DNA from: Candidatus Uhrbacteria bacterium RIFOXYB12_FULL_58_10
Lineage (GTDB): Bacteria; Patescibacteriota; Patescibacteriia; UBA9934; GWF2-40-263
DNA length: 64,000 nucleotides
Assembly: GCA_943354165.1 (NCBI GenBank)
Contig: CALRBH010000001.1
Span: 80,828-144,827, forward strand
Direction: 5' to 3'
Part shown: positions 4,975 through 63,500 of the stretch, in pieces
How positions within the stretch are numbered: position 1 is the stretch's first letter
Layout: each line of letters opens with the position of its first letter
Position numbers and translations under genes: made by a program
Notes under the pieces: generated by a model
Databases searched by the model: none
Seen by the model: the letters and a program-made list of their open reading frames with translations, nothing else
What the model was told of the DNA's origin: nothing

Positions 4975-5526
4975 TTAGATGCGGCCTACGATGGCGGTCA
5001 TTCGGCCGGCCATATAGGTGATTTCCTGCTCGGTACGGATGGGGAAGTCGGTTTTCAGGAGTTCCATGAACTTGATGGCGACTTCGCGGGCGATCTCCTG
5101 GTGGCCCTTTTCACGGCCACGGAGCACGAGCTCGATCTTGACCTTATCCCCACGCTCGAGGAATTTCTTGGCCTGTTGATGGCGGACTTCAAGGTCGTGA
5201 TCTCCGATGCGGAGGGAAAGGCGGATCCCCTTGACCTCGACTTCATGCGATTGGGCCTTTTGTTTGCGGGCTTCCTTTTCCTTCTGGTATTTGAACTGGC
5301 CGAAGTTGAGGAGCTTGCAGACCGGCGGGTTTCCCTTAGGAGAGACTTCCACCAGGTCCGATTCTTTGCTGAGCGCAAGCGCGATGGCGTCCGCGGTCGT
5401 CATGACTCCAAGTGGTTCACCTTCAAGCCCAATAACGCGAACCTCAGGGACGAGGATCATTTCATTGGCCTTGTAGCTCGGAACCTCAAATTTGGGTTTC
5501 CGAACCCGGTGTCGATGAATACGCAT
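4975..5526 (-). CDS. infC: translation initiation factor IF-3
   Basis: VIGLEGEPLGVMTTADAIALA..., PPVCKLLNFGQFKYQKEK, C-domain; start uncertain (IF-3 often uses a non-ATG start; the ORF could extend to 5580). Confidence 0.85.
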   Translation of the reverse strand: MRIHRHRVRKPKFEVPSYKANEMILVPEVRVIGLEGEPLGVMTTADAIALALSKESDLVEVSPKGNPPVCKLLNFGQFKYQKEKEARKQKAQSHEVEVKGIRLSLRIGDHDLEVRHQQAKKFLERGDKVKIELVLRGREKGHQEIAREVAIKFMELLKTDFPIRTEQEITYMAGRMTAIVGRI

Positions 5527-5589
5527 AACGTGGCCGATTGTAGCAGAGGAATGGAAAAAAACAAGAGAACGGGCTACCATCCGGTGGCT

Positions 5590-6030
5590 ATGGCAGATCT
5601 AGCGTTCAACAAGCGGGCCGCATTCGATTACGACCTTCTTGAAAAACTTGAGGGCGGGTTAAAGCTGACCGGGCCGGAAGTGAAGTCGGCGAAGGCTGGG
5701 CACGTGCAATTTAAGGGGGCGTTTCTACATGTGCAGAAGGGAGAGCTGTGGCTTAAGAATCTCCACATCTCCAAATACGTTCCGGCGGGGGAGCAGCTGC
5801 TCTATAATCCAACGCGTGATCGGAAGGTGCTTGTCCACAAGCGGGATATTGCTCGGCTCACCGGAAAAACGCATGCGGACGGATTGACATTGGTGCCAAT
5901 TTCGGTGTATCTTCGCAGGAATCTCGTGAAGCTTTCCTTCGCCCTCGCGCGCGGAAAAAAGCTGTTCGAAAAGAAGGACGCGATCAAGAAACGCGATCTC
6001 GACAGGGAAGTCCGCCGCGGCGAGGCGTAG
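5590..6030 (+). CDS. smpB: SsrA-binding protein SmpB
   Basis: MADLAFNKRAAFDYDLLEKLEGGLKLTGPEVKS...; the track ORF from 5101 is an artefactual extension. Confidence 0.93.
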   Translation: MADLAFNKRAAFDYDLLEKLEGGLKLTGPEVKSAKAGHVQFKGAFLHVQKGELWLKNLHISKYVPAGEQLLYNPTRDRKVLVHKRDIARLTGKTHADGLTLVPISVYLRRNLVKLSFALARGKKLFEKKDAIKKRDLDREVRRGEA

Positions 6031-6113
6031 TTAGTAGTTAGTAGATAGTAGTTAGTAGAGTTGGTTGGAAAATTTTCCTACTTACTACTAACTACTTACT
6101 ACTAACTGCTAAC
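6028..6113. repeat. TAG-rich imperfect inverted repeat (GTTAGTAG units) forming a ~30-bp hairpin; an empty copy of the element that flanks the four-helix-bundle gene at 44784..45226
   Basis: TAGTTAGTAGATAGTAGTTAGTAG (identical 24-mer to 44791..44814), 19-nt spacer, then CTACTTACTACTAACTACTTACTACTAAC; starts at the smpB stop codon; stops in all three frames. Confidence 0.7.
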
Positions 6114-6127
6114 GCAGTTAGTCATAT

Positions 6128-6528
6128 GGGGCTGATCGGCTTCGCCGGCAGCCTGTTTCCGTCTAAGCAAGCCGAGGGTGTACTGAACCTCGTAAATCCT
6201 CTGTGCAAAGAAGTCATTTGCCAACCTCTTCTCACAAGTGAAGAGCGCGATCGCTTCGGCGTTCCGCGTTCCGACACTTGCCATGGTTACCGCCTAAGGG
6301 CTTGTAACCCATCCGTCCTGCTGGTTCGTAAGCGGGGTCGCGGGTGTTATATCTACGGACTCTCCTTGATGGACTACCGGTCTTCAGCAAGGGAATTGGC
6401 GGCCGGTCCGTCTGCAGGTATTTCGTTCTGTTTGACCCTGCAGCCGCGTAAATCTAACAGAACTTCGCTTGGAGAAAGGATTGGGGACAGTTGACCAGAC
6501 GGGGGTTCGATTCCCCCCAGCTCCACCA
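6128..6528 (+). ncRNA. ssrA: tmRNA (ssrA)
   Basis: 5' GGGGCTG pairs with 3' CAGCTCC-A-CCA (G3:U70-like wobble); 3' tRNA-like T-arm GGGGGTTCGATTCCCCC; adjacent to smpB; the tag ORF cannot be delineated confidently by eye (candidate in-frame stops at 6295 and 6459). Confidence 0.88.
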
Positions 6529-18424: not shown

Positions 18425-19975
18425 ATGAGCGTTATGTTGGACCTGCAGGCGATGTATGGCCTTACGGAGGAGCGGTCAAAGGGATTGATGGTGGTGCTCG
18501 CCATCTCGTTTGTTGTTCTCATCGGCTCCATGTCGTTTCTTTCGCCGGTAGCGGTGGTGGCCGGGGTGATTGGCGTTCTGCTGCTCGCTCTCACGATTGT
18601 GCGACCGCTCTGGACGCTGAGCCTACTCGCCCTCTACCTTCCGTTCGAGCCGTTTCTGCTCAAGTTTGCGCCGGACGAAGTGTATACGTTTGCCCGGTTC
18701 GGTTCCGAAGGACTCATCTATATTCTTGGGGGGCTCGTGATCGCGCGTATCCTCATGGGGCGTACGTCGAACGTTCAGACGCCTATCAGTCTTCCGTTCG
18801 TCCTGTTCTGCGTTGTTCTCGGCGCGTCCGCGCTTATCAATGCCGTGCCTCCGAGCATCGCCGTACTCGGCATCAGACAGATCATCAGGTTCATCCTGGT
18901 ATTCTTTATCGTCGTACAGCTCGCGCCGTCCAAGTCTTACATTTCAAAACTGACGATCGCACTGTTTGGGATTGCGGCGTTCGAAAGTTTGCTGGCGTTC
19001 GCCCAGCTCGTCATTGGTGCGCCGCTCGACACATTCCTCCTGCCGTCGGACACGCGCGCGATCGGCGACGTTGCCGTTACGGCCGGGACGACCCAGTTCT
19101 GGGACCCGGGCTCGCGCACGTTCGGGACGCTCGGTCGGTATGATCGGCTCGGAAACTTTCTGTTCATGATGCTGTTGTTCGGCGTCGGCTTCCTCACGCA
19201 GCAGGGGAAGCGCGCGATCTCTTTGTCCCGTAATCAACTTCTTTGGCTGTTCGCCCTCGGGTTACCTGCGCTCCTCATGACGTTCTCGCGCGCATCTTGG
19301 TTCGCCTTTCTCTTCGGCTTCCTTTTCATCATGGTGGTGCTGCTGCGCGATAAACGCGTGATGGCGGCGTTCGGGATTTGTGGGGTCCTTGCGGGAGCGT
19401 ACGTGGGATTGTCCGGGCTTAATGTACGGTTCATTACGGAAGCGCCGGGGCAGACCCTCATCGAGCGGTTTTACGAAACGTTCAGCTATGCGCGATGGCG
19501 CGGGGAATATTACGGACTCGGCCGCGTGTTTTGGTTCGTGCAAACCGTGTCAGTTGTCGTCCCCGCTGCGCCGATCTTTGGCTGGGGGCCTGGGCAGTAC
19601 GGGGCAGGGGCCGCGACCACGCTCGTGAATACGCGCGTGTATGACGCGCTCGGCTTGCCGTTCGGGGTCTATGGAACCGATGGGTATATCGATAACAACT
19701 GGTTCTCCTTATGGGGGGAAGCCGGAACGCTCGGACTCGCGTTTTTCCTCTGGATGTACATCGGACTATTTGTGTACGTATGGCGAGGATATCGCCGGAG
19801 TTCCGATGGGTTCACACGCGGGTTGTGCGCGGGGTATCTCGCCCTGCAAATCGGCGTCGCGTTCGCGGCGTTCCTTGCGACATCGTTCGAGACAAGAACG
19901 GTCGGGTACTACTTGTGGATGTATGCCGGGTTCCTCGTGGTGCTGCTTGAGCGTGAACGTCGTACGCCCGTATGA
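18425..19975 (+). CDS. O-antigen ligase / Wzy-type polymerase family membrane protein
   Basis: ~12 TM helices, large periplasmic loop containing the TFSRASW signature of the Wzy_C/O-antigen ligase family. Confidence 0.72.
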   Translation: MSVMLDLQAMYGLTEERSKGLMVVLAISFVVLIGSMSFLSPVAVVAGVIGVLLLALTIVRPLWTLSLLALYLPFEPFLLKFAPDEVYTFARFGSEGLIYILGGLVIARILMGRTSNVQTPISLPFVLFCVVLGASALINAVPPSIAVLGIRQIIRFILVFFIVVQLAPSKSYISKLTIALFGIAAFESLLAFAQLVIGAPLDTFLLPSDTRAIGDVAVTAGTTQFWDPGSRTFGTLGRYDRLGNFLFMMLLFGVGFLTQQGKRAISLSRNQLLWLFALGLPALLMTFSRASWFAFLFGFLFIMVVLLRDKRVMAAFGICGVLAGAYVGLSGLNVRFITEAPGQTLIERFYETFSYARWRGEYYGLGRVFWFVQTVSVVVPAAPIFGWGPGQYGAGAATTLVNTRVYDALGLPFGVYGTDGYIDNNWFSLWGEAGTLGLAFFLWMYIGLFVYVWRGYRRSSDGFTRGLCAGYLALQIGVAFAAFLATSFETRTVGYYLWMYAGFLVVLLERERRTPV

Positions 19976-21198
19976 CCGTCCTTCAAGCGCATAAATTTTA
20001 TTTTCCACGCGGCGGGGCGGAGACGTATCTCTTCGCGCTGTCCGAATATTTAGCGTCGCGCGGGTCAACGGTCGTTCCGTTCGCGATGCAACATCCGGGG
20101 AATCGGCAAACTCCATATTCGCACTATTTCCCTCGGTTCGTTCCTACGGAAAAAGTGAAGATGTCGCCGGCGGGATTGCGTACCGTAGGCCGGATGTTTT
20201 ATAGCTTCGAATCTAAGCGCCAGATGGAGCGATTGTTACGGGACGTCCCCATCGACGTCGCCCATATCCATAATCTGTACACGCAGCTGTCCCCATCGAT
20301 CCTTACTCCGCTCCGGAAGAGAAAGATTCCGACGGTGATGACGGTGCATGATTATCACCTGGTGACTCCGCACTATGCACTTCCGCTTGCCGGGCAGGCC
20401 GTGGACGTTTCTCGTGTGGGAGCATTGCGCGCGGCGCAGACGAAGTTTCATAAGGACTCAATGGCCGCAAGTTTTCTGCAAGCCGCATCTTATCGATTCA
20501 CCCGCCGCTGGAGATTTTATGATCGTGCCATTTCGCTCTTCATCGCTCCGAGTGAATTCATGGCGGCAAAACTGCGCGCGTCCGGATATGACAAGGATCG
20601 CATTCGCGTAATCCATTACGGCATCGACACGCGGACGATCGAACCTCGGTTCGGACACGATGGATATTTTCTGTTCGTCGGAAGGCTCTCGGAAGAGAAG
20701 GGGGTCGATACGGTGCTTGAGCTTGCGCATCGACTTCCGGATCTAAAGTTTAAGATTGTCGGGACCGGGCCAGATGAGGCGTTATTGCACTCCGTTGGCG
20801 ATCGACTTCCGAACGTCGAGTTCATGGGATACCAGCAAGGCCAGCGGTTGCGGGATCTGTACCTTGGTGCCCGGGCGGTATTAGTGCCTTCCAGGTGGGA
20901 GGAGCCTTCCGGTCTGGTTTTGCTTGAGGCCCAGGCCTGTGGAAAACCTGTGATTGCGAGCCATGCCGGTGGCATCCCGGAGGCCATGGAAGACCGCAGG
21001 AGCGGGTTTCTGGTCCCACCGCTTGATATCCACGCCTGGACCGAGGCCGTGCTGCGCCTCGCCTATGACGACCGGTCACGCGAAAAGATGGGCAGGGACG
21101 CCAGAACCCTTATGGAAGACCGGTTTTCGCTCAGGGCCCATTACGAGGCTGTGGAGCATGTTTATGCTGAGGCAATACGATTAGGGGGTAGTGCGTAG
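19972..21198 (+). CDS. glycosyltransferase family 4
   Basis: GT-B; C-terminal EPSGLVLLEAQACGKPVIASHAGGIPE (E-x7-E region). Confidence 0.85.
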   Translation: MTVLQAHKFYFPRGGAETYLFALSEYLASRGSTVVPFAMQHPGNRQTPYSHYFPRFVPTEKVKMSPAGLRTVGRMFYSFESKRQMERLLRDVPIDVAHIHNLYTQLSPSILTPLRKRKIPTVMTVHDYHLVTPHYALPLAGQAVDVSRVGALRAAQTKFHKDSMAASFLQAASYRFTRRWRFYDRAISLFIAPSEFMAAKLRASGYDKDRIRVIHYGIDTRTIEPRFGHDGYFLFVGRLSEEKGVDTVLELAHRLPDLKFKIVGTGPDEALLHSVGDRLPNVEFMGYQQGQRLRDLYLGARAVLVPSRWEEPSGLVLLEAQACGKPVIASHAGGIPEAMEDRRSGFLVPPLDIHAWTEAVLRLAYDDRSREKMGRDARTLMEDRFSLRAHYEAVEHVYAEAIRLGGSA

Positions 21199-21212
21199 TG
21201 TGTAGGGGGTAG
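21183..21212. repeat. stop-codon-rich GTAG motif GTAGTGCGTAGTGTGTAGGGGGTAGG overlapping the stop of the GT4 gene
   Basis: TAG in all three frames; shares the GCGTAGTGTGTA 12-mer with 33424..33448. Confidence 0.55.
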
Positions 21213-21253
21213 GAAAAAAGGGCTCTATTTAGCTAAATAACTGTTGAAATGGC

Positions 21254-21282
21254 TTGACAAAAAGCCATTTTTTTGCTATTCT
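21254..21282 (+). promoter_or_regulatory. promoter TTGACA-N17-TATTCT; the -35 is embedded in the hairpin AAATGGCTT/AAGCCATTT; -10 lies 8 nt from the ATG (leaderless)
   Basis: Hexamers and spacing read directly. Confidence 0.45.
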
Positions 21283-21290
21283 GCGCAGTT

Positions 21291-22463
21291 ATGAAAATCG
21301 CCATGATCGGATCAAAGGGGATTCCCGCCGCCTCCGGAGGAGTGGAGCGGCACGTGGAAGAGCTCTCAACGGAGCTCGTAAAGCTGGGACATGATGTCCT
21401 GGTGTATTCTCGTGCTTGGTATACGGGCGTAAACAAGCCTCGTTTTTCGCATCGCGGGGTGACCTGCGTTTCCGTTCCGTCATTGCGTACGAAGCACTTC
21501 GATTCCATTACTCATACGTTTGCCTCCATTGTGGCAGCGGCTCGTGAAGGGGTGGACGTGTTCCATATCCACGGCGTCGGTCCCGCTTTGCTTTCTTGGC
21601 TTCCTAAGCTGTTGCTTCCGTCCGCCAAGGTGGTTGTGACCTTCCATTGCATTGATCGCCATCATGAGAAATGGGGATGGATTGCCCGCTTCATGCTCCG
21701 CACCGGCGAATGGGCCGCAGTCCGTTTTCCGGACGCGACCATCGCGGTTGCAAAGTCTCTTCAGGATTACTTGCGCCTCACCTATGCCACCCACACCATG
21801 CATGTGCCTAACGGTACCCGCATGCCGGAGGGGGAAGGGGACGCGACCAAGCTCTCAAAGTTTGGACTTGAAAAGGGAAAGTATCTGATGTTCTGCGCCC
21901 GCCTCGTCCGTCACAAGGGGGCCCATGTTCTCGTGGAAGCCTGGAAGCTTCTTTGTAAGGAGCGTCCGGACCTCACGGACGGAATGAAGCTTGCGATTGT
22001 CGGAGGCTCGGCGTTTACGGACGGGTATGTCCGCGAACTCACGGAGCTTGCGAAGGGCGATGAGTCCATCGTTCTCACTGGTGCCCAGCATGGCGAGGAC
22101 CTGCATGCGCTCTTCAGCCATGCGTACGCCTTCGCCCATCCATCGTCTTCTGAAGGGTTGCCGATCTCGGTCCTCGAAGCGATGTCCTACGGCAAGTGCG
22201 TGGTCGCCGCAGACATTCCGGAATCGCGCGAAGTCGTGGAAGGCCACGGTCTCACCTTCAAGGTGGGGAACGTGGAAGACCTTGCCCGCAAACTCGCGAT
22301 GGTGATTGAAAGCCCGGACCTCGCCGCCTCCGTCGGGTATGACGCCCGCGACTTCGTGGCGCGACAGTACGACTGGGACAACATTGCCGAGACCACCAGC
22401 TACCTGTATGAGGCGCTCCAGTTCGAGCCTCGCGTACAGGTCCGGCCAGTTGCCGGGCGATAG
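21291..22463 (+). CDS. glycosyltransferase family 4
   Basis: MKIAMIGSKGIPAASGGVERHVEEL N-terminus; GT-B C-domain with EGLPISVLEAMSYGKCVVAADIPE. Confidence 0.85.
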   Translation: MKIAMIGSKGIPAASGGVERHVEELSTELVKLGHDVLVYSRAWYTGVNKPRFSHRGVTCVSVPSLRTKHFDSITHTFASIVAAAREGVDVFHIHGVGPALLSWLPKLLLPSAKVVVTFHCIDRHHEKWGWIARFMLRTGEWAAVRFPDATIAVAKSLQDYLRLTYATHTMHVPNGTRMPEGEGDATKLSKFGLEKGKYLMFCARLVRHKGAHVLVEAWKLLCKERPDLTDGMKLAIVGGSAFTDGYVRELTELAKGDESIVLTGAQHGEDLHALFSHAYAFAHPSSSEGLPISVLEAMSYGKCVVAADIPESREVVEGHGLTFKVGNVEDLARKLAMVIESPDLAASVGYDARDFVARQYDWDNIAETTSYLYEALQFEPRVQVRPVAGR

Positions 22464-22816: not shown

Positions 22817-22829
22817 AGGGTCTTTGTGG

Positions 22830-22868
22830 GGCTGTAAAGGCAGTAAGGGCTGTAAAGGCGGTAAGGGG
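22830..22868. repeat. tandem GGTAAGG/CCTTACC-type repeat upstream of the HTH gene
   Basis: GGCTGTAAAGGCAGTAAGGGCTGTAAAGGCGGTAAGGGG; related units at 30361..30405 and 63395..63500. Confidence 0.5.
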
Positions 22869-28989: not shown

Positions 28990-29235
28990 ATGGTAAAGCA
29001 AAAACTTTCAGCCAAAGTGGATCGTAAAACGATTATCCACGCCGTTGACCAACTCTCTCCAGATCGTGCGAGGATCGCGGTGGATTTTTTGGAGTTTCTC
29101 CATCAGAAAGATGCTGAATGGGATGCAACTACAGAACTCCTTTCGGATAAAAAGTTGATGAGCGATATCGCCACCGCAAGAAGGGATGTGGCAAAAGGAA
29201 TCGGACTCTCGTCTTGGCGCAAAACATCTGCGTAA
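28990..29235 (+). CDS. putative type II antitoxin (cognate of the downstream RelE/ParE toxin)
   Basis: 81 aa, small acidic protein, stop 1 nt before the toxin ATG. Confidence 0.55.
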   Translation: MVKQKLSAKVDRKTIIHAVDQLSPDRARIAVDFLEFLHQKDAEWDATTELLSDKKLMSDIATARRDVAKGIGLSSWRKTSA

Positions 29236-29236
29236 T

Positions 29237-29494
29237 ATGTTCGAGGTCCAGCTTCATATAAAAGCCAGGAAATCATATGAACGGCTTCCAAAACAGGCCG
29301 TTCTTCTTGTTGATCGCGGATTTGCTCTTCTTGAGTCGGATCCGTTTTCCGGGCCACAGATTAAACGTCTGCACGGTCCACTTGCCGGGCTATATCGTTT
29401 ACGGGCTGGAAGATATCGTATTGTTTATCAGATCATAAATGATCATCAAATAGTCGTAGTTCTTGTCATTGGCTCAAGAGAGAGTGTGTATTAA
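29237..29494 (+). CDS. type II toxin, RelE/ParE family
   Basis: ...GLYRLRAGRYRIVYQIINDHQIVVVLVIGSRESVY matches the RelE/ParE C-terminal signature; start at MFEVQ. Confidence 0.85.
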   Translation: MFEVQLHIKARKSYERLPKQAVLLVDRGFALLESDPFSGPQIKRLHGPLAGLYRLRAGRYRIVYQIINDHQIVVVLVIGSRESVY

Positions 29495-30351: not shown

Positions 30352-32403
30352 ATGCGTCGCCTTCTTACCCTTACCGCCCTTACAGCCATTACCGCCCTTA
30401 CCACCCAACCCGCACTCGCAGCCATCCCGAACGATCCTCTCATTGAACAGCAATGGTACCTGGCCAAGGTTCAGGCATTCAACGCATGGGACCACGGGAC
30501 GGGAACGGATGACGTCGTCGTTGCGGTGCTTGATACGGGTATTGATCTTGATCATCCGGATATAAAAGAGAATCTTTGGCGTAACGAAGGAGAGGTGAAA
30601 GGCGATGGGATCGATAATGATCAGAATGGTTTTGTTGACGATACGAACGGTTGGGATTTCATTGATGGGGACAACAGTCCGACTCCTTCCGCCGTGAACG
30701 CGCCGAGCGATGACGCGGTCGTGCATGGAACCGTCATTGCCGGAGTTATCGCCGCTGTTGGAAACAACGGGGAAGGGATCGCCGGGCTCAACTGGAAGGC
30801 GAAGATCATGCCGGTCCGCATCCTGGACCAATTCGGTTCCGGGACGAGCGAGGGAGCGCGTAAGGCCATCGAATACGCCGTGGCCAATCATGCCGACGTC
30901 ATTAATTTGAGTTTTACCGGATTCGAAGTCGACGAGGTCTTTAAGGACGTGGTTCACCGCGCGTACCAGGCAGGGGTGATTGTTGTTGCGGCTGTGGGGA
31001 ATAAAAGCGGCGGGGGAGTGAACCTGGACGAGACACCCGTGTATCCGGCCTGCTTCATGGGACTCGATGGGGACTGGGTGCTCGGTGTCGCCGCGACCAC
31101 TCGTCAGGACACCAAGGCTGGATTTTCAAACTACGGTTCGACCTGTACGGACATCAGTGCACCTGGGATCGAAGTGTTTGGCACGTCTTTTCAGGATCCG
31201 ACGGTAAACGGGTTTGGCCAGGCTTATCTTGGCGGATGGGCAGGTACATCGATTGCGTCTCCGATGGTGGCTGGCGCGGCTGCGCTGCTTAAGGCCAAGT
31301 ATCCGTTCATCACGCCAACGCAGGTAAAAACTGCATTGCAGCTTTCCGTGGATCCGCTTGCGGAAGTTGGGACGCCTGCCGCGGGGAAACTCGGTGCGGG
31401 TCGGCTGAACGTTGCTCGGGCGTTTGAGGTCGCGGGACAGTTTACGTTTGGGACGTCTTTGCCGATTCCTTCAGGACCCGCACCGGCAGTTCTCCCACCC
31501 CCTCCAACTCCCCCTCCGGGAGGGGGAGGGTTCGAGTCTGTTCGGATCGTCCTTGCGGCTGGGCCGGGTGCTGCGCCTCGAGTTCAGGTTTTTGATGAAG
31601 GCGGGCATGCGTCTGCATCGTTCTTGGCGTATGCCGAGGCGTTTAAGGGCGGCGTGCGCGTTGCGGCTGGCGATGTGGATGGGGACGGCGTCATGGAAAT
31701 CATCACGGTGCCCGGGCCAGGTGGCGGTCCGCACGTGCGTATCTTCACTCTTTCTGGCACGGTGAAAGGACAGTTTTTTGCCGGGGACAAGGCTGACCGG
31801 CGCGGATTAAACGTGTCGGTTGCGGATGTGGACGGCGATTTGAAATGGGAGATTATCACCAGCACGGAAGTGGGCGGGCTTGGGGAGGTGAACGTCTTTA
31901 CCATGGACGGAACTCGGCTTTCGAGCTTCAAACCGTTTCCAGGATCCAAGGAAGCGATTCGTGCGACGGGCGTGGACGCGGATGGAGATCGGCGAGATGA
32001 GATTGCCGTAGCGCTCGGCGCCGGGGCGAAACCGGAAGTGCGATTGTTTAGTTCCACCGGTTCGCTGAAGAAGAGTTTTCTTGCATATGGGGCAGGGTTC
32101 CTTGGCGGGATCTATTTGACTGCCGCGGATCTCGATGCAGACGGCAGCGAGGAAATCGTTGCGGGAACCGGGACTGGAGGAGGACCGCAGGTGCGGACGT
32201 TCACCGGCAAGGGTGCCGTCGTGGATTCTTTCTTCGCCTTTGACGCCACGCACCGCAAAGGGGTGATGGTCGCGGGGGCGGGCACGTTCCTTGTGGCCCT
32301 TGAAGGAAGCAGCGGAGCTGTGAAGCTCCTGAATCGCAAGGGACAGACCATGGGCGGATTCGATGTCCTCCCGGGCAATTATTCATTAGCTGTCCTTGAA
32401 TAA
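30352..32403 (+). CDS. secreted subtilisin-like serine protease (S8) with C-terminal FG-GAP/VCBS-like beta-propeller repeats
   Basis: Triad motifs VLDTGIDLDHPD, HGTVIAGVIAA, GTSIASPMVAGAAALL; repeats AAGDVDGDGVMEII, TAADLDADGSEEIV; the signal peptide is encoded by the CCCTTACC repeat; TATAAT 9 nt before the ATG. Confidence 0.85.
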   Translation: MRRLLTLTALTAITALTTQPALAAIPNDPLIEQQWYLAKVQAFNAWDHGTGTDDVVVAVLDTGIDLDHPDIKENLWRNEGEVKGDGIDNDQNGFVDDTNGWDFIDGDNSPTPSAVNAPSDDAVVHGTVIAGVIAAVGNNGEGIAGLNWKAKIMPVRILDQFGSGTSEGARKAIEYAVANHADVINLSFTGFEVDEVFKDVVHRAYQAGVIVVAAVGNKSGGGVNLDETPVYPACFMGLDGDWVLGVAATTRQDTKAGFSNYGSTCTDISAPGIEVFGTSFQDPTVNGFGQAYLGGWAGTSIASPMVAGAAALLKAKYPFITPTQVKTALQLSVDPLAEVGTPAAGKLGAGRLNVARAFEVAGQFTFGTSLPIPSGPAPAVLPPPPTPPPGGGGFESVRIVLAAGPGAAPRVQVFDEGGHASASFLAYAEAFKGGVRVAAGDVDGDGVMEIITVPGPGGGPHVRIFTLSGTVKGQFFAGDKADRRGLNVSVADVDGDLKWEIITSTEVGGLGEVNVFTMDGTRLSSFKPFPGSKEAIRATGVDADGDRRDEIAVALGAGAKPEVRLFSSTGSLKKSFLAYGAGFLGGIYLTAADLDADGSEEIVAGTGTGGGPQVRTFTGKGAVVDSFFAFDATHRKGVMVAGAGTFLVALEGSSGAVKLLNRKGQTMGGFDVLPGNYSLAVLE

Positions 32404-32420
32404 GGTACAATGTCCCCACT

Positions 32421-33431
32421 ATGCCAACCCAACCATTTGAAAAGAAAAACGTGCTTGTCACCGGCGGGGCCGGGTTCATCGGATCCCATCTCTGCGAACG
32501 GCTGCTCATGGATGGCCATCGCGTGATCTGCTTGGATAACTTTTCCACCAGTCACGTCCGTAATATCAACGACCTGCTTTCGAATCCAAACTTTCAGTTC
32601 CTCCGCCTCGACATCAACGAGCCGATGAACCTCGAGCAGTACACCGAGCTGTCCGGATTCAAGCTTCCGTTCCAGGGGATCCAGGAGATCTATCACTTGG
32701 CGTGTCCGACATCGATTAAACAGTTCGACCAGTTCCGTGCGCAGACGCTGCTCGCCAGTTCCGTGGGCACGTACAATGTACTTGAGCTCGCCCGGAAATA
32801 TCGCGCGAAGATTTTGCTGTCGTCGAGTTCGGTCGTCTACGGATCGCGACGCAAGGAACATCCAGTTGTCGTGGAAACGGATTTGGGAACGGTTGACCAG
32901 CTCTCCCCCCGCGCCTGTTACGATGAAGGCCGCCGGTTTTCGGAAACCATGTTTGCCACCTACCAGCAGGTGCACGGGCTTGAGACGCGCATCGCGCGCA
33001 TCTTCCGCACGTATGGTCCTCGCATGCCGCTTTTTGACGGCCATCTCATTCCGGATTTCGTCCTCAACGCCCTCGAAGGGAAAGATCTGGTGGTATACGA
33101 CCATGGAGGATTCCACTCGTCGTTCGTCTTCGTGACGGACGTCGTGGACGCGCTCGTCCGCCTTATGGGCACGCCGACCGATCCGGGTCCCGCCAACGTG
33201 GGAAGCGACGTCGACATGCTTGTGGACGATGTCGCGGCGATGATCGTCAAGCTGACGGAATCGACTTCGCCGGTAAAGCAAGGCGAGGACCTTCTGTTCC
33301 TCTCGGAGCTTCCGATTCCAAACATTGACCGCATGCGCGAGATTGGATGGTTTCCGATCGTGCGGCTGGAGGACGGGCTTGAGAAGACGGTCGAATACAT
33401 GAAGGCGAATCGGCTGCTCTTGAGCGTGTAG
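32421..33431 (+). CDS. NAD-dependent UDP-glucuronate decarboxylase (UXS / UDP-xylose synthase-like SDR)
   Basis: VLVTGGAGFIGSHLCERLL, YDEGRRFSE (YxxxK region), extended-SDR epimerase/dehydratase fold. Confidence 0.8.
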   Translation: MPTQPFEKKNVLVTGGAGFIGSHLCERLLMDGHRVICLDNFSTSHVRNINDLLSNPNFQFLRLDINEPMNLEQYTELSGFKLPFQGIQEIYHLACPTSIKQFDQFRAQTLLASSVGTYNVLELARKYRAKILLSSSSVVYGSRRKEHPVVVETDLGTVDQLSPRACYDEGRRFSETMFATYQQVHGLETRIARIFRTYGPRMPLFDGHLIPDFVLNALEGKDLVVYDHGGFHSSFVFVTDVVDALVRLMGTPTDPGPANVGSDVDMLVDDVAAMIVKLTESTSPVKQGEDLLFLSELPIPNIDRMREIGWFPIVRLEDGLEKTVEYMKANRLLLSV

Positions 33432-33448
33432 GGCGTAGTGTGTAAGGT
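33424..33448. repeat. stop-codon-rich motif GTAGGGCGTAGTGTGTAAGGTATAGG overlapping the stop of the UXS gene
   Basis: Shares GCGTAGTGTGTA with 21183..21212; TAG/TAA in all three frames. Confidence 0.5.
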
Positions 33449-33458
33449 ATAGGAATCT

Positions 33459-35546: not shown

Positions 35547-35565
35547 GATTGTAGATGTTTAGAGT

Positions 35566-35655
35566 GGGCAGGGTTTGCAGGGTGGGCAAGGGTGTAGGAA
35601 ATTTTTATAAAAAGCCATTCCATCACCCCGCCCATCCTTGCCCACCCCACAAACC
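35566..35655. repeat. long imperfect hairpin with G-tract-rich arm (GGGcaGGGtttgcaGGGtGGGcaaGGG), potential G-quadruplex / i-motif pair
   Basis: Left arm GGGTTTGCAGGGTGGGCAAGG, right arm CCTTGCCCACCCCACAAACCC; between two GT genes. Confidence 0.5.
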
Positions 35656-43124: not shown

Positions 43125-44596
43125 AGTCCATCCGTGCGATTCAGGCTTTGATCATTCTTGTCCCCGTCATCCTGTTCGGCTGGCTGCTTTGGCAGGAGCT
43201 CGTCCCGACGGGCACGTTTATCATGGAGCGAGTCGCAGGAACGGCCTCGCCGTTTATTGATCGATTGCTTCCGGACGGACGCGTGCAGCTCGCTGATCCT
43301 CATTCCGCTCGTCCTACGGATACCATCACGGGCGACCCTGCGTTCTTTTTCGTCCATCCGCACCGCGGATTTGAATCCGGCGAGGTGGAAATTCGTTTTC
43401 AGAATACGGGCGTGCCCATCGTTGAGTTTGGTGGACTGGCGCGCGAAGAAGGACAGGTCTATGACCTCACGCCCATTCAGAACCGGCTGATCGACACCTC
43501 CACATGGACGCGTCATGAAGAACAAGGAATCACTCTTCTTGAGCGCGAGCCGAAGTTCGCGACGATCGCTGATTTTCTTGCGAACCCTCCGCCGCGCCAT
43601 GAGATTTCCACCTATCACTATCGACTCGCCCGCGCGTACCGGATGCCCGGGTATGTCGCACAAGGAGGCACCAGGAACATCGACGTTTCTTTGCGCGGAT
43701 TTCATGAATTCGAAACGTACCTGAAGAACGAGCCGCTTTCGTTCACGTTTTCTTATACGGATGAGAACCGCGGGGAAGGGCCGGACCCGTTTGAGGTGAT
43801 CGTCTTCAATGAGAACAACGAAGCCGTGACGGACGTCCATGTGGCGGATGACGGAAATACAGGCGATGATGCGCGGCCTTCCAGAATACGCACCGCGACC
43901 GTTTCGCTCGCATTGGTTCCGGAAGGGACGTACAAACTTGAGATACGGGTTGGCACGGACATTTTTTTGAGATCGATTCAGACAAGCGCGAACAAGCTCG
44001 TCGCGATGAACACCATCATTCTCGGAGATGAGGTTGGCTACAAGCCCGTGCCGTCGAGCGTGCGGATGTGGACGGAGTCGAAGACGCTCGCGTTTGAGAC
44101 GACGCACGCGGAAGGGGTGCAGTCGGTGGAGGTTGGGGCGAACGCCGTTGCTCTCGCGACGCCATTTACGCGCGTGGAATACGACGTGAAGGAATCCGGC
44201 GTCGTGCGCATTACGGTTCCGAAGGGCGATGCGCGCGTGTTCGGCGACGGACATTATGCGTTTGCCCCGGACCAGTTTTTCAATCCGGATCCTGTACGTC
44301 TGAACGCCACCACGAATCTTGATCGGCTCGGGGTAAACTATGTCATCGCCGCCTATACTCCGCCTGTGAAGGACCCTTCGACAAGCTCAGGGCAGGGAGG
44401 GGAATGGCTCGTGGCGCGCGTTCCGTTTAACACAGAAGGACTCGTTCAACTGAACGGCACCTGGAAATTTGCGTTCTCGCTTCCGGGAATCGAGCGGACA
44501 GGCGGCGCGGTGAACGTCCGATCCGTCTCGTTCACCATGCACCGGGCTCCTCTCACCATCTCTGTATTGATGACCCTGATCCGTTCGCGCTTATGA
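43121..44596 (+). CDS. hypothetical membrane-anchored extracytoplasmic protein
   Basis: N-terminal TM ALIILVPVILFGWLLW; 450-aa beta-rich ectodomain; translationally coupled to the GT-C. Confidence 0.5.
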   Translation: MKSIRAIQALIILVPVILFGWLLWQELVPTGTFIMERVAGTASPFIDRLLPDGRVQLADPHSARPTDTITGDPAFFFVHPHRGFESGEVEIRFQNTGVPIVEFGGLAREEGQVYDLTPIQNRLIDTSTWTRHEEQGITLLEREPKFATIADFLANPPPRHEISTYHYRLARAYRMPGYVAQGGTRNIDVSLRGFHEFETYLKNEPLSFTFSYTDENRGEGPDPFEVIVFNENNEAVTDVHVADDGNTGDDARPSRIRTATVSLALVPEGTYKLEIRVGTDIFLRSIQTSANKLVAMNTIILGDEVGYKPVPSSVRMWTESKTLAFETTHAEGVQSVEVGANAVALATPFTRVEYDVKESGVVRITVPKGDARVFGDGHYAFAPDQFFNPDPVRLNATTNLDRLGVNYVIAAYTPPVKDPSTSSGQGGEWLVARVPFNTEGLVQLNGTWKFAFSLPGIERTGGAVNVRSVSFTMHRAPLTISVLMTLIRSRL

Positions 44597-44793
44597 AACC
44601 GTTCACGCTTCGTCTCATCGCTACGTTGTTCCGCGTAAGTGCCCTCTCGTACGTTTTATTCTGGGCGGCAGATGCGATGAGGCCAGGGTTTGTGTCACGA
44701 TACGTCTCCGTCCACTTGTTCGGGTTGCTTGCGCTTGTGTTCGGAACCCTTTTTGCGGTATATGGAGAGGACGTTGGGGGTCGTAGTAAGTAG
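44593..44793 (+). CDS. small 2-TM membrane protein
   Basis: 66 aa, overlapping start with the upstream gene. Confidence 0.4.
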   Translation: MKPFTLRLIATLFRVSALSYVLFWAADAMRPGFVSRYVSVHLFGLLALVFGTLFAVYGEDVGGRSK

Positions 44794-45226
44794 TTAGTAG
44801 ATAGTAGTTAGTAGGTATGGATGATGATTTGCGCAGGGATAAACGTTCATATAAAGATTTGACGGTTTGGCAGAAGTCCATGGATTTGGTTGTGCTTATC
44901 TACGAACTGACAAAAGATTTTCCTGCCGATCAGAAATTTAGTCTTGTGAATCAGATGCAGCGTGCGGCTGTCTCTGTGCCGTTGAATATCGCGGAAGGTT
45001 CACGTAGACGAAGTGAAGCAGATAATATTCGTTTTCTCCGCATCGCGTTTGGATCAGCGTCTGAACTCGAAACCCAGATCCTTATCTCTCAACGTCTCCG
45101 GTTCGGTCATTCTGAGAAATATTCAGGCATAAAAAGCTTGCTTATAGAGGTTCTCAAGATGCTAAACAAAATGTCAGAATGACCGTAACCCTACTTTCTA
45201 CTTACTACTATCTTCTAACTACACCC
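44784..45226 (+). mobile_element. cassette: four-helix-bundle (23S rRNA IVS protein) gene bracketed by TAG-rich imperfect inverted repeats, inserted exactly between two host genes
   Basis: Left arm GTAGTAAGTAGTTAGTAGATAGTAGTTAGTAGG overlaps the upstream stop codon; right arm CCCTACTTTCTACTTACTACTATCTTCTAACTACACCC ends 2 nt before the HIT ATG; 24-nt core identical to 6031..6054. Confidence 0.6.
44817..45182 (+). CDS. four helix bundle protein (TIGR02436; 23S rRNA-intervening-sequence protein family)
   Basis: 121 aa; YKDLTVWQKSMDLVVLIYELTKDFPADQKFSLVNQMQRAAVSVPLNIAEG... typical of the family. Confidence 0.85.
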   Translation: MDDDLRRDKRSYKDLTVWQKSMDLVVLIYELTKDFPADQKFSLVNQMQRAAVSVPLNIAEGSRRRSEADNIRFLRIAFGSASELETQILISQRLRFGHSEKYSGIKSLLIEVLKMLNKMSE

Positions 45227-45228
45227 AT

Positions 45229-45645
45229 ATGTCTGACTGTATTTTCTGTAAAATCATTGCGGGGGACATTCCTGCCATAAAGATTCATGAGGACGAGCAG
45301 TGCATTGCATTTCTCGATATCCATCCAGTGAACCCTGGGCACACGCTGATCGTTCCGAAGGAACACCATGCAAATTTTCTTGAGACGCCTAAGGAACTCG
45401 TGGCGGTGATCATGGCGCTCGGACAGAAGCTTTCGCCGGCCATCCTTAAAGCCGTCGGTTCCGATTCGTTTAATTTTTCTACGAACAACGGCCGCGCAGC
45501 AGGACAGTTGATTGCTCATACGCATTTTCACCTGATCCCGCGCTTTCCGGCAGACGGCCATAAGATGTGGCATGGGTCTGACGAGCATCAGGATTTTGCG
45601 GCGATGGCCACGAAGATTCGAGAGGCAGTAGGCAGTGGGGAGTAG
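45229..45645 (+). CDS. HIT family hydrolase
   Basis: CIFCKIIAGDIPA; HTHFHLIPR histidine triad. Confidence 0.9.
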   Translation: MSDCIFCKIIAGDIPAIKIHEDEQCIAFLDIHPVNPGHTLIVPKEHHANFLETPKELVAVIMALGQKLSPAILKAVGSDSFNFSTNNGRAAGQLIAHTHFHLIPRFPADGHKMWHGSDEHQDFAAMATKIREAVGSGE

Positions 45646-45654
45646 GAAGTAGAT

Positions 45655-62439: not shown

Positions 62440-63399
62440 ATGAAGCTCTCGCCTATTGCGATCTTGGTTGCAATTTGCGTGAGCCTCGCCGCTCTTGCGG
62501 TTTGGGCCATGCCTCAAGTGGAGCCGCGCTGGGGCGTGACGTTTTCCACCAAGTATTCTCGCGAGCTCGGGTTGAATCCGGAAACCGTGTTTTGGGAGGT
62601 GGTGAACGACCTGAACGTCCGTGCAATCCGGTTGCCCGTGTATTGGGATGAGGTGAATCCACAATTCGACGTTTGGAATTGGCAGCCGTACGACCATCTG
62701 GTTGAAATGGCCGATGAGAAGGGGGTCGCCCTCACGCTTGCGGTGGGAATGAAGACGCCGCGCTGGCCGGAATGCCATGTTCCAGAATGGGCCGCCTCCA
62801 TTTCCTCCATCGATTCATTCGACAAGCAGCGATCCGCCTACATCGATGCGGTTATTAAACGATACGACGGACACGTCTCCGTGGAGCGGTATCAGATCGA
62901 GAATGAGCCGTTGTTTCCGTTTGGTGAGTGTCCGGGTTCCAGCATCGAGCGGCTGGAAGAAGAAGTGCATCGTGCGAGGCTTGTGACGACGAAGCCAATA
63001 CAAATCACGGCGAGCGGAGAATTCGAGCTCTGGAGCCGTGTGGCCCCTCTTGTCGATGTCCTTGGCGTTTCCCTTTATCGCATTTCCTGGAACGATGCAT
63101 ACGGTTTTTTTCGCTATCCCATTCCCGCCGCGTATTACCGATTACGGGCTATGGGTATCCAGCGTCCGGTTATTATTTCCGAGCTTCAGGCCGAGCCGTG
63201 GTTTCCCGTCTCCATTGAGAGTCACCCCGCCTCTTATTGGGCGCAGCTGTTCACGTCCAATGATTTCCGCGACCAGGTCCGCTTTGCCCGCCGGACCGGA
63301 TTGTCCGAAGCGTATCTTTGGGGGGTGGAGTGGTGGTACTATTTGCGTGCTCACGGATATCCAGAGCTTTGGGACGCTGCGCGTCCTCTTTGGCGGTAA
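62440..63399 (+). CDS. secreted TIM-barrel glycoside hydrolase (GH5/GH113/PslG-like)
   Basis: Signal/TM anchor; conserved ENEP (acid/base) and SELQAEPW (nucleophile) typical of clan GH-A. Confidence 0.55.
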   Translation: MKLSPIAILVAICVSLAALAVWAMPQVEPRWGVTFSTKYSRELGLNPETVFWEVVNDLNVRAIRLPVYWDEVNPQFDVWNWQPYDHLVEMADEKGVALTLAVGMKTPRWPECHVPEWAASISSIDSFDKQRSAYIDAVIKRYDGHVSVERYQIENEPLFPFGECPGSSIERLEEEVHRARLVTTKPIQITASGEFELWSRVAPLVDVLGVSLYRISWNDAYGFFRYPIPAAYYRLRAMGIQRPVIISELQAEPWFPVSIESHPASYWAQLFTSNDFRDQVRFARRTGLSEAYLWGVEWWYYLRAHGYPELWDAARPLWR

Positions 63400-63500
63400 G
63401 GGCGGTTAGGGTTGTAAGGGGAGTAAGGGATTTTCCTTTCGCTCTATTCGTTCTGTCGCCCTTACCGTCCATTACCACCCTTACAACCCTTACCACCCAA
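63395..63500. repeat. inverted repeat of GGTAAGGG/CCCTTACC units (G-quadruplex-capable left arm) between the GH gene stop and the next gene
   Basis: GGTAAGGGCGGTTAGGGTTGTAAGGGGAGTAAGGG ... CCCTTACCGTCCATTACCACCCTTACAACCCTTACCACCCAAC; shares CCCTTACCACCCAAC with 30391..30405. Confidence 0.55.

What the first reader, a model, noticed from the sequence alone, without database searches (positions are those of the whole stretch)
6028..6113. Stop-codon-rich G/T repeat family placed directly on gene ends, with TAG/TAA in all three frames
Four intergenic spots start exactly at a stop codon and supply further TAG/TAA triplets in every frame within 30 nt. They are 6028 (gcgTAGttagTAGttagTAGaTAGTAG), 21183 (gTAGtgcgTAGtgtgTAGggggTAGg), 33424 (gTAGggcgTAGtgtgTAAggtaTAGg) and 44784. 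The copies at 21183 and 33424 share the 12-mer GCGTAGTGTGTA, and both sit between polysaccharide-locus genes. This looks like a dedicated three-frame translation stop / ribosome clearing element, or a degenerate member of the TAG-hairpin element above. It does not look like chance, given the ~60% GC background.
Basis: seen in the sequence. Interest (0 to 1): 0.6.

Follow-up and report, generated by a model that had tools for sequence, protein, structure and literature searches.

The report
TAG-heptamer arrays of S23p-type hairpin elements
The stop-codon-rich spots are short tandem arrays of a 7-base unit (GTAGnnn, about five copies) that form the arms of inserted hairpin elements, the same architecture that brackets the gene for the enigmatic 'S23p' four-helix-bundle protein in many bacterial phyla; the three-frame stops are a side effect of the 7-base period, not a dedicated translation-stop device.

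Summary
All four sites are tandem arrays of GTAGNNN (period 7, about 4.6 units, five TAG cores). TAG-N4-TAG-N4-TAG occurs 15 times in the window against 0.05 expected. Stops in all three frames follow arithmetically from a 7-nt period that contains TAG. Gene ends in the window show no general three-frame-stop enrichment (2 of 56, P=0.37).

What the sites are:
- 6027-6113 is a roughly 30-bp hairpin between smpB and tmRNA.
- 44783-44814 and 45191-45222 are inverted arrays bracketing a PF05635 (S23p, Avd-like four-helix-bundle) gene.
- 21182 and 33429 are orphan arrays with no complementary partner.

In 85 PF05635 loci from more than 10 phyla, 73 have period-7 or period-8 arrays in a flank. That is 56-58% of flanks, against 4-6% at other gene boundaries. 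The two flanks are usually reverse complements. TAG is enriched in the units (61% against 21% expected) but TAA and TGA are not.

Syntenic relatives lack both the arrays and the cassette, so these are insertions. One insertion truncated a gene.

Closest known systems are the S23p-carrying 23S rRNA intervening sequences (cut by RNase III) and the Xanthomonas GGGAATC heptamer arrays. The likely role is an intercistronic RNA stem. Function remains inferred.

The parts
6027..6058 (+). 5' arm of a solo hairpin: GTAGTTA x4.6 (five GTAG cores). Its first TAG (6028-6030) is the smpB stop codon.
   Evidence: SmpB domain; pairs with 6078-6113; dG -49.7 kcal/mol, z -6.1
6059..6077 (+). Loop of the solo hairpin (gagttggttggaaaattttc), containing a small GGAAAATTTTCC palindrome.
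6078..6113 (+). 3' arm of the solo hairpin: CTACTAA x5.1, the complement of the 5' arm. It ends 14 nt before tmRNA (6128-6528) and has no U-tract.
21182..21213 (+). Orphan heptamer array (TAGGGGG TAGTGCG TAGTGTG TAGGGGG TAGG) with five TAGs at 7-nt spacing. The stop of the GT4 gene 19972-21198 lies inside it. No complementary arm is nearby.
   Evidence: A separate terminator-like hairpin (21246-21271) and a promoter-like site (21254-21282) follow.
33429..33458 (+). Degenerate orphan array (TAGGGCG TAGTGTG TAAGGTA TAGGAAT CT) filling the whole 27-nt spacer between the epimerase stop and the GT2 start (ATG 33459). It shares 20 of 23 nt with the 21193 array.
   Evidence: The orthologous spacer in relative L216 is 2 nt.
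44783..44814 (+). 5' arm of the S23p cassette: GTAGTAA GTAGTTA GTAGATA GTAGTTA GTAG. It provides the stop (44791-44793) of a truncated small membrane-protein ORF and ends 2 nt before the S23p ATG.
44817..45182 (+). PF05635 / TIGR02436 gene (S23p, 'four helix bundle protein', Avd-like), 121 aa. Its GC3 is atypically low (0.43 against about 0.65 for the host).
   Evidence: E=2.5e-38; PDB 2GSC E=3.4e-36
45191..45222 (+). 3' arm of the S23p cassette: CTACTTT CTACTTA CTACTAT CTTCTAA CTAC. It ends 6 nt before the HIT gene ATG (45229).
   Evidence: arm complementarity score 20 against null median 7; the MFE of the 457-nt RNA pairs the two arrays; z -3.7
45623..45652 (+). Related orphan heptamer array (AGGCAGT AGGCAGT GGGGAGT AGGAAGT AG) covering the HIT gene stop (45643-45645) and ending 2 nt before the next ATG.
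35560..35650 (+). Sister element: a solo hairpin with periodic G-rich 5' arm (GTGGGCAGG...) and C-rich 3' arm, in a GT2-to-GT4 spacer that is 3 nt long in a syntenic relative.
63392..63498 (+). Sister element: a solo hairpin with nonamer arms (GGCGGTAAG x4.2 / CCCTTACCA x4.3).
   Evidence: A second copy lies about 2 kb past the window end (L002 10738-10864).

Best explanation
The four sites are tandem arrays of a 7-nt unit (GTAGNNN, about 4.6 units, roughly 30-32 nt). They belong to a family of inserted elements whose full form is [G/T-rich heptamer array] - [short loop, or a PF05635 'S23p' gene] - [complementary C/A-rich array].

Shown here:
- The arrays are periodic and non-random.
- 6027-6113 and 44783...45222 are complementary arm pairs.
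- The same architecture brackets PF05635 genes across many phyla.
- The elements are absent from the orthologous gene junctions of syntenic relatives, so they are insertions sitting exactly between one gene's stop and the next gene's start.
- Array copy number changes by whole units between close relatives.

Inferred:
- In the polycistronic transcript the two arms pair into a roughly 25-30-bp stem. This is the structure that RNase III cuts in the S23p-carrying intervening sequences of 23S rRNA.
- The element would therefore act as, or be tolerated as, an intercistronic processing or insulating stem-loop.
- The orphan arrays at 21182 and 33429 are half-elements: degenerate copies, or copies that never acquired a partner.

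The TAG/TAA triplets in every frame are a by-product of the 7-nt period. Their practical effect is that any ORF running into the array ends at once. That is why arrays appear to sit directly on gene ends.
For: In the window:
- Period-7 arrays and statistics.
- Hairpin 6027-6113: dG -49.7 kcal/mol, z -6.1, no shuffle as stable.
- Whole-cassette RNA fold closes on the two arrays.
- PF05635 identity.

Across 85 PF05635 loci (Patescibacteria, Bacteroidota, Planctomycetota, Clostridia, Acidobacteriota, Proteobacteria, one archaeon):
- Lag-7 periodicity is found in 56% of upstream and 58% of downstream flanks. It is found in 1.6% of random windows and at 3.6-5.7% of other gene boundaries in the same loci.
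- 73 of 85 loci have an array in at least one flank, and 44 in both.
- Period-7 TRF arrays occur at 3.27 per kb near the gene against 0.109 per kb elsewhere.
- The 5' flank against the reverse complement of the 3' flank scores a median of 15, against 7 for mismatched loci. 41 of 85 exceed the 99th percentile of that null.
- The modal length of both arms is 4.3-4.6 units.

Evidence of insertion:
- Relatives L216 and L218 have 2-nt and 3-nt spacers where the window has the 33429 array and the 35560 hairpin.
- They have an intact 113-128-aa ORF where the window has a 66-aa stump followed by the cassette.

Evidence of unit-wise dynamics:
- L003 carries the same cassette (90% nt identity) with 14 + 20 extra nt in the left arm.

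Precedents:
- The Coxiella IVS has an S23p ORF preceded by tandem GACAGAT heptamers of variable copy number, inside a 28-bp stem cut by RNase III (PMC4990558).
- Xanthomonas GGGAATC arrays are mostly four units, include 70-75 convergent pairs, and lie on average 28 nt after the upstream ORF (PMC4692102).
- The X. campestris S23p ortholog lies between accB and accC, flanked by exactly those arrays.
Against: - There is no transcript or cleavage data for any of these loci.
- Mismatches between the arms show no excess of G.U-type (77) over A.C-type (93). So there is no signature that pairing is selected specifically in the sense-strand RNA. A DNA-level origin of the inverted arrangement is equally compatible.
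- Two of the four sites, and 82 of about 115 short GTAG arrays sampled from metagenomes, have no complementary partner. The stem model does not explain these.
- Units differ between elements within one genome (7-mers and 9-mers here), so a single copy-and-paste repeat is excluded.
- 12 of 85 PF05635 loci show no array at the chosen threshold.
- RNase III was not looked for in this genome.
Confidence: 0.55

Rival explanations
1. Protein-binding arrays. The roughly five-unit arrays are binding sites, in RNA or single-stranded DNA, for the homopentameric S23p ring, with one unit per subunit. This would resemble TRAP on (G/U)AG repeats or HutP on UAG-N4 repeats. Binding to the 5' arm would control stem formation, the protein's own translation, and genes next to orphan arrays.
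For: - The modal array length of 4.3-4.6 units gives five cores.
- S23p homologs crystallise with five chains per entry (2GSC, 2RLD) and are described as a homopentamer.
- The homolog Avd is a positively charged pentamer that specifically protects about 30 nt of RNA (PMC6182149), which matches the 30-32-nt arrays.
- TAG, not stop codons in general, is enriched in the units.
- Arrays often abut the S23p start codon.
- Non-cassette arrays share the cassette's unit (up to 1 mismatch) in 33% of same-locus comparisons against 7% across loci, P<0.0005.
- This model would explain orphan arrays.
Against: - No binding data exist.
- Two thirds of co-resident arrays differ by 2 or more positions from the cassette unit.
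- This window alone holds GTAGNNN, GGCAGT-type and 9-mer families but only one S23p gene.
- Unit sharing could equally reflect common descent or base composition.
Confidence: 0.2
2. Selfish or neutral slippage-prone repeats. The arrays and hairpins are by-products of an insertion or slippage process (heptamer simple-sequence repeats). They are tolerated at gene junctions and have no host function.
For: - They are absent from orthologous junctions in relatives.
- One insertion destroyed half of a gene.
- Copy number differs between close relatives.
- There is no RNA-wobble signature.
- Heptamers are reported as the commonest long simple-sequence repeat class in prokaryotes (Mrazek 2007, as summarised in PMC4679880).
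- The S23p ORF is decaying in Coxiella.
Against: - Arm length is tightly conserved at about 4.5 units across phyla.
- Arm complementarity is kept while units diverge.
- There is a strong arrangement bias: the complementary array lies downstream of the GTAG array in 26 cases and upstream in 2.
- The S23p protein sequence is conserved, with 21 invariant columns in 20 diverse sequences.
Confidence: 0.15
3. One reading: a dedicated three-frame translation-stop or ribosome-clearing element placed after genes.
For: - The arrays do supply the actual stop codon of four upstream ORFs.
- 76% of 5' arm units contain some stop, against 55% expected.
Against: - Gene ends show no general enrichment (2 of 56, P=0.37; 0 of 52 outside arrays).
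- The enrichment is specific to TAG; TAA and TGA are at or below expectation.
- 24% of units have no stop.
- The 9-mer sister elements cover only one frame.
- The same sequences occur as complementary CTA arms.
Confidence: 0.05
4. Ordinary structural signals: intrinsic terminators, G-quadruplexes or Shine-Dalgarno spacers.
For: - The hairpins are stable.
- G4 formation was proposed for the Xanthomonas GGGAATC arrays.
- Some arrays end in AGGA-like motifs just before an ATG.
Against: - No U-tract follows any of the hairpins, and the scan makes no terminator call at 6027-6113 although it finds canonical ones elsewhere (sequences).
- GTAGTTA arrays lack G-tracts.
- 3' arms abutting start codons are C/A-rich and have no SD.
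Confidence: 0.05

Closest known systems
S23p-carrying intervening sequences (IVS) of 23S rRNA (Coxiella burnetii, Leptospira, Brucella; PMC4990558)
   Same: - A PF05635 ORF sits in the loop of a long stem formed by terminal inverted repeats.
- Tandem heptamers lie immediately upstream of the ORF, with copy number varying between strains.
- The stem is about 28 bp.
- The element is regarded as selfish or inserted.
   Different: - Here the element lies between protein-coding genes, or before tmRNA, and not inside rRNA.
- Both arms are heptamer arrays.
- ORF-less and one-armed versions coexist with the full form.
- RNase III cleavage has not been shown here.
GGGAATC heptamer arrays of Xanthomonas and GGGGA(C/T)T arrays of Nostoc (Rehm et al. 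2015, PMC4692102)
   Same: - The repeats are intergenic heptamer arrays, mostly about four units.
- They lie close behind the upstream ORF.
- They frequently occur as convergent (inverted) pairs.
- Lengths differ between related species.
- I found that the Xanthomonas S23p gene is bracketed by these very arrays.
   Different: - The unit sequence differs (GTAGNNN, with no G-tracts, so no G-quadruplex).
- That paper did not link the arrays to S23p.
- Xanthomonas uses one unit genome-wide, whereas this genome has several.
TAACTGA direct repeats of marine Beggiatoaceae, cyanobacteria and Bacteroidetes (MacGregor 2015, PMC4679880)
   Same: - Heptamer units contain stop codons and so give stops in all three frames.
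- Arrays have 2-6 copies.
- They sit between a stop codon and the next start codon, sometimes overlapping the end of the upstream ORF.
- That author reached the same by-product reasoning about stops.
   Different: - TAACTGA arrays are almost all direct repeats, with only one inverted case.
- No associated gene was identified.
- The units differ.
TRAP and HutP RNA targets (own knowledge: ring-shaped oligomers binding (G/U)AG repeats; the HutP site is UAG-N4-UAG-N4-UAG)
   Same: - TAG cores recur at a fixed 7-nt spacing.
- They lie in the 5' arm of a stem-loop.
- The number of cores equals the subunit number of a ring-shaped protein encoded next door.
   Different: - S23p is unrelated to either protein.
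- No binding is shown.
- HutP and TRAP are restricted to Firmicutes.
DGR accessory protein Avd bound to spacer RNA (Handa et al. 2018, PMC6182149)
   Same: - It belongs to the same protein superfamily (weak NF033474 hit).
- It is a pentameric barrel.
- Its specific RNA footprint is about 30 nt.
   Different: - No reverse transcriptase or template/variable repeats are near the gene here.
- The score is far below the Avd equivalog cut-off (23.7 against 80 bits).

Membership tests
Intergenic heptameric tandem repeats (long SSRs; Xanthomonas GGGAATC / Beggiatoaceae TAACTGA type) | Unit of 7 nt repeated head-to-tail, typically 2-6 copies (mode about 4) | tested here: met
   TRF finds period 7 with 4.6 copies at 6027, 21182 and 44783. 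TAG spacing is exactly 7 nt.
Intergenic heptameric tandem repeats (long SSRs; Xanthomonas GGGAATC / Beggiatoaceae TAACTGA type) | Intergenic, close to or overlapping the 3' end of the upstream ORF | tested here: met
   All four arrays contain the stop codon of the upstream ORF.
Intergenic heptameric tandem repeats (long SSRs; Xanthomonas GGGAATC / Beggiatoaceae TAACTGA type) | Frequent convergent (inverted) pairs able to form stem-loops | tested here: met
   Pairs are 6027-6058/6078-6113 and 44783-44814/45191-45222. The arrays at 21182 and 33429 are unpaired.
Intergenic heptameric tandem repeats (long SSRs; Xanthomonas GGGAATC / Beggiatoaceae TAACTGA type) | Many copies dispersed over the genome | tested here: inconclusive
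   Five GTAG-type arrays, plus related 7-mer and 9-mer arrays, occur in about 70 kb. The rest of the genome could not be fetched.
S23p-type intervening sequence (IVS) | PF05635 ORF enclosed by terminal inverted repeats forming a stem of at least 20 bp | tested here: met
   Met for 44783-45222. The solo hairpin 6027-6113 has the stem but no ORF.
S23p-type intervening sequence (IVS) | Tandem heptamers directly upstream of the ORF | tested here: met
   The array at 44783-44814 ends 2 nt before the ATG. The same holds in 56% of 85 loci.
S23p-type intervening sequence (IVS) | Inserted in a 23S (or 16S) rRNA helix | tested here: not met
   The only structured RNA genes Rfam finds in the window are tmRNA and one tRNA. 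The elements lie between protein-coding genes.
S23p-type intervening sequence (IVS) | Excised from the transcript by RNase III | not testable with these tools
   This needs RNA end mapping or an in vitro cleavage assay.
Rho-independent terminator | GC-rich stem followed by a U-tract | tested here: not met
   The stems are A/T-rich TAG/CTA repeats. No T-run follows 6113, 35650, 45222 or 63498. The scan makes no call there.
HutP/TRAP-type NAG-repeat operator | NAG triplets at regular spacing (HutP: UAG-N4) | tested here: met
   Five TAGs occur at 7-nt spacing. This shows resemblance only.
HutP/TRAP-type NAG-repeat operator | Cognate HutP or TRAP protein encoded in the genome | not tested
   Only selected window ORFs were scanned. 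The candidate binder proposed here is S23p, which is unrelated to either protein.
MITE / REP-like dispersed repeat | Multiple near-identical copies with conserved terminal inverted repeats and target-site duplication | tested here: not met
   The elements in this window have different units (GTAGTTA, GGGCAGG-type, GGCGGTAAG). No duplication is visible at the junctions compared with L216.
G-quadruplex-forming repeat | At least four G-tracts of 3 or more G | tested here: not met
   GTAGTTA arrays have isolated Gs. The 21182 array has only two G5 tracts.

The most novel reading that the evidence does not exclude
S23p (PF05635) is a ring-shaped pentameric nucleic-acid-binding protein whose cognate sites are five-unit heptamer arrays. 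The protein gene bracketed by its own sites forms a mobile intercistronic cassette. Solo hairpins and orphan arrays are trans targets or relics of it. This would give a function to a very widespread protein family of unknown role. It would also explain why heptamers are the dominant long simple-sequence repeat in prokaryotic genomes.
Probability: 0.22. Interest if true: 0.85.

Novelty: new variant of a known kind. Interest (0 to 1): 0.6.

Why it matters
Three literatures have stayed separate: S23p-carrying rRNA intervening sequences, unexplained intergenic heptamer repeats (Xanthomonas, Nostoc, Beggiatoaceae), and the Avd/four-helix-bundle protein family. This locus, together with the 85-locus comparison it prompted, suggests they describe one architecture: a PF05635 gene bracketed by inverted arrays of about five heptamers, with ORF-less derivatives, inserted at stop/start junctions of operons.

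I found no paper stating this general association. The nearest is a single observation of heptamers upstream of the Coxiella S23p ORF.

If it holds, it gives concrete experiments for a protein family of unknown function present in most bacterial phyla. It also offers a mechanistic handle on heptamer repeats.

For annotation, it warns that such arrays define gene ends, can truncate genes, and break assemblies.

Tried and rejected
1. General three-frame-stop enrichment after gene ends: absent.
2. Known RNA family: Rfam at gathering threshold finds only tmRNA and one tRNA.
3. Intrinsic terminator: no U-tracts and no scan call at the hairpins.
4. G-quadruplex: the units lack G-tracts.
5. RNA-level selection tested through wobble asymmetry in the arm mismatches: G.U-type 77 against A.C-type 93, inconclusive.
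6. Alternative genetic code as an explanation for TAG/TAA-only stops: rejected, because TGA ends many well-scoring ORFs.
7. Array seeded by duplication of the upstream gene's own stop codon: unlikely, because TAG, usually the rarest stop, dominates the units while TAA and TGA do not.
8. GTAG arrays as a reliable marker of S23p: no. In a metagenome sample of GTAGN3 x4 arrays only 1 of about 115 abuts a PF05635 gene. The association runs from gene to arrays, not from arrays to gene. That sample also contains eukaryote-like microsatellites.
9. The source contig (298 kb, NCBI) could not be retrieved beyond about 6 kb past the window, so no genome-wide census was possible.
10. Literature searches for PF05635, TIGR02436 or S23p together with heptamers returned only the Coxiella paper.
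Full report
OBSERVATION.

The four sites exist as described.
- TRF reports GTAGTTA x4.6 at 6027-6058, a period-7 array x4.6 at 21182-21213, and GTAGTTA x4.6 at 44783-44814.
- It reports reverse-complement arrays (CTACTAA) at 6078-6113 and 45191-45222.
- TAG-N4-TAG-N4-TAG occurs 15 times in the window against 0.05 expected from dinucleotide shuffles.
- GTAGTTAGTAG with up to 1 mismatch occurs 14 times against 0.10 expected.
- The shared 12-mer GCGTAGTGTGTA is confirmed at 21193 and 33433.

Because 7 mod 3 = 1, a TAG in the unit falls in frames 0, 1, 2, 0... Three-frame coverage is therefore arithmetic (positions). Window GC is 56%. TGA is used as a stop, so the genetic code is standard.

SURROUNDINGS.

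Site 6028 is the 5' arm of a long hairpin.
- Its first TAG is the smpB stop codon (SmpB domain).
- The complementary arm ends 14 nt before tmRNA (6128-6528; Rfam).
- The RNA fold gives -49.7 kcal/mol with z = -6.1.

Site 44784 is the left arm of a cassette.
- The array ends 2 nt before the ATG of a 121-aa PF05635 / TIGR02436 protein (S23p, 'four helix bundle protein'; E = 2.5e-38).
- That protein is a homolog of PDB 2GSC, XCC0516.
- The complementary array begins 8 nt after its stop and ends 6 nt before the next gene's ATG.
- The minimum-free-energy fold of the 457-nt RNA closes on the two arrays.
- The gene has atypical codon usage (GC3 0.43 against about 0.65).

Sites 21182 and 33429 are arrays without a complementary partner.
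- They are about 87% identical to each other over 23 nt.

The same window holds further periodic-arm hairpins at 35560-35650 and 63392-63498. The latter has 9-nt units. Another orphan heptamer array lies at 45623-45652.

COMPARATIVE EVIDENCE.

The organism is a Patescibacteria (Uhrbacteria-like) MAG.

PF05635 genes in relatives are flanked by TTAGTAG-type arrays upstream and CTACTAA-type arrays downstream.

A scan of one genome per species returned 80 PF05635 loci. They come from Patescibacteria, Bacteroidota, Planctomycetota, Clostridia, Acidobacteriota, Proteobacteria and an archaeon. By eye, almost all show a heptamer array before the gene and its reverse complement after it, with a lineage-specific unit.

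Quantified over 85 loci:
- Lag-7 periodicity of at least 15 of 21 matches is found in 56% of upstream and 58% of downstream flanks.
- The same threshold is met by 1.6% of random windows and by 3.6-5.7% of boundaries of other long ORFs in the same loci.
- Period 8 contributes a further 13%. Other periods are at background.
- 73 of 85 loci have an array in at least one flank.
- The two flanks are reverse complements far more than mismatched pairs are: median score 15 against 7, with 41 of 85 above the 99th percentile.
- Both arms have a modal length of 4.3-4.6 units.
- ORF-less inverted pairs also occur in these loci.

In a metagenome sample of GTAGN3 x4 arrays, a complementary array lies within 200 nt downstream in 26 cases and upstream in only 2.

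THEY ARE INSERTIONS.

Two syntenic relatives (upstream protein 52% identical) lack everything:
- The epimerase-to-GT2 spacer is 2 nt. In the window it is the 27-nt array.
- The GT2-to-GT4 spacer is 3 nt. In the window it is a 120-nt hairpin.
- A small membrane-protein gene is intact at 113-128 aa. In the window and in L003 it is cut to 66-72 aa and followed by the S23p cassette, whose array supplies the new stop.

L003 has the same cassette at 90% nucleotide identity but 34 extra nt (14 + 20, roughly five units) in the left arm. The arrays therefore grow and shrink by units.

- Among 56 gene ends, only the two array-bearing ends have stops in all three frames within 30 nt (1.29 expected, P = 0.37). 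Without the array sites the count is 0 of 52.
- In 49 homologous 5' arrays, TAG is present in 61% of units against 21% for letter-permuted units. TAA (12% against 17%) and TGA (14% against 22%) are not enriched, and 24% of units have no stop.
- The enrichment is for TAG, with CTA in the other arm, and not for termination signals as such.
- MacGregor reached the same by-product conclusion for TAACTGA arrays.

HOW IT PROBABLY WORKS.

The only experimentally studied relatives are the S23p-carrying intervening sequences of 23S rRNA. In Coxiella the S23p ORF is preceded by tandem GACAGAT heptamers of variable number, inside a 28-bp terminal stem that RNase III cleaves (PMC4990558).

By analogy, I infer that the arms here pair in the polycistronic transcript and form an RNase III-type intercistronic stem. 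None of the hairpins has a U-tract, and the terminator scan does not call them.

This step is inferred, not shown. The arm mismatches give no wobble signature: G.U-type 77 against A.C-type 93. Orphan arrays remain unexplained by it.

AN ALTERNATIVE OR ADDITIONAL MECHANISM.

Arrays carry five cores. S23p is a homopentamer. The homolog Avd is a pentamer that protects about 30 nt of RNA (PMC6182149), which matches the 30-32-nt arrays. Non-cassette arrays share the cassette's unit more often within a locus than between loci (33% against 7%, P < 0.0005). The arrays may therefore be S23p binding sites, TRAP/HutP-like. This is unproven.

RELATION TO KNOWN WORK.

- Intergenic heptamer arrays of about four units, close behind the upstream ORF and often in convergent pairs, are described for Xanthomonas (GGGAATC) and Nostoc (PMC4692102).
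- Stop-containing TAACTGA arrays are described for Beggiatoaceae (PMC4679880).
- I found that the X. campestris ortholog of XCC0516 sits between accB and accC, bracketed by GGGAATC arrays and their complement. This ties that literature to S23p.
- PF05635 genes wedged between operon genes (for example cmr3/cmr2) and inside CPR rRNA insertions have been noted without mention of the arrays.
- Searches of the held library found no paper stating the general association. Absence from that library is not proof of novelty.

VERDICT.

The feature is real and non-random.

The sites are a new, TAG-type, mRNA-resident variant of a known but unexplained kind: heptamer arrays and the S23p IVS.

Caveats:
- The 80 loci are the best tblastn hits, not a random sample.
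- ORF starts were set heuristically.
- No expression data exist.

Noticed in passing
window 44593-44793: A small membrane-protein ORF is truncated to 66 aa. Its orthologs in syntenic relatives are 113-128 aa (L216 11464-11850, L218 11242-11583). The S23p cassette replaces its 3' half.
   Followed up: yes
window 30368-30406: A nonamer array CCCTTACCG x4.3 lies inside the start of a 683-aa ORF, where it encodes the hydrophobic stretch LTLTALTAITALTT of an apparent signal peptide. It is nearly identical to the 3' arm of the hairpin at 63459-63498, so a repeat arm may have been co-opted as coding sequence.
   Followed up: partly
window 22829-22867: A nonamer array (GGGCTGTAA AGGCAGTAA ...) lies just upstream of a minus-strand HTH_17 (excisionase-like) gene that starts at about 22816.
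   Followed up: no
L002 10738-10864 (about 2 kb beyond the window end): Another nonamer-arm hairpin (GTAAGGGCG / CCCTTACCA) lies between the small and large ribonucleotide reductase subunit genes. It is the same family as 63392-63498.
   Followed up: partly
window 5884-5913: A promoter-like site (TTGACA-18-TATCTT) sits inside the 3' end of smpB. If it drives ssrA, the TAG hairpin lies in the pre-tmRNA 5' leader.
   Followed up: no
window 5101-6030: The smpB ORF is 309 aa, but the SmpB domain covers only residues 168-306. Either there is an N-terminal extension or the true start is internal.
   Followed up: no
window 21254-21291: A promoter-like site TTGACA-17-TATTCT (with TG) ends 8 nt before the likely ATG of the next glycosyltransferase (21291). 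This suggests a leaderless or very short-leader mRNA. It overlaps a terminator-like hairpin at 21246-21271.
   Followed up: no
window 28990-29494: Two small overlapping ORFs have very low GC3 (0.35-0.45) compared with the host. They may be a foreign toxin-antitoxin-like pair.
   Followed up: no
L213 2920-3375 (Xanthomonas campestris): The ortholog of the crystallised S23p XCC0516 is inserted between accB and accC. It is flanked by GGGAATC-type arrays upstream and their complement downstream, and the 3' arm runs into the accC ATG.
   Followed up: yes
L004 4540-4603 against L006 730-794: Two assemblies of the same Parcubacteria S23p locus differ by a 31-nt duplication of the upstream GTTAGTAG array. 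This is population-level array polymorphism.
   Followed up: partly
metagenome loci L134, L153, L160, L186, L188: Long GGGTGTA/TAGGGTG arrays picked up by the GTAG pattern look like eukaryotic telomere-like or microsatellite repeats. They are unrelated to the bacterial elements.
   Followed up: no
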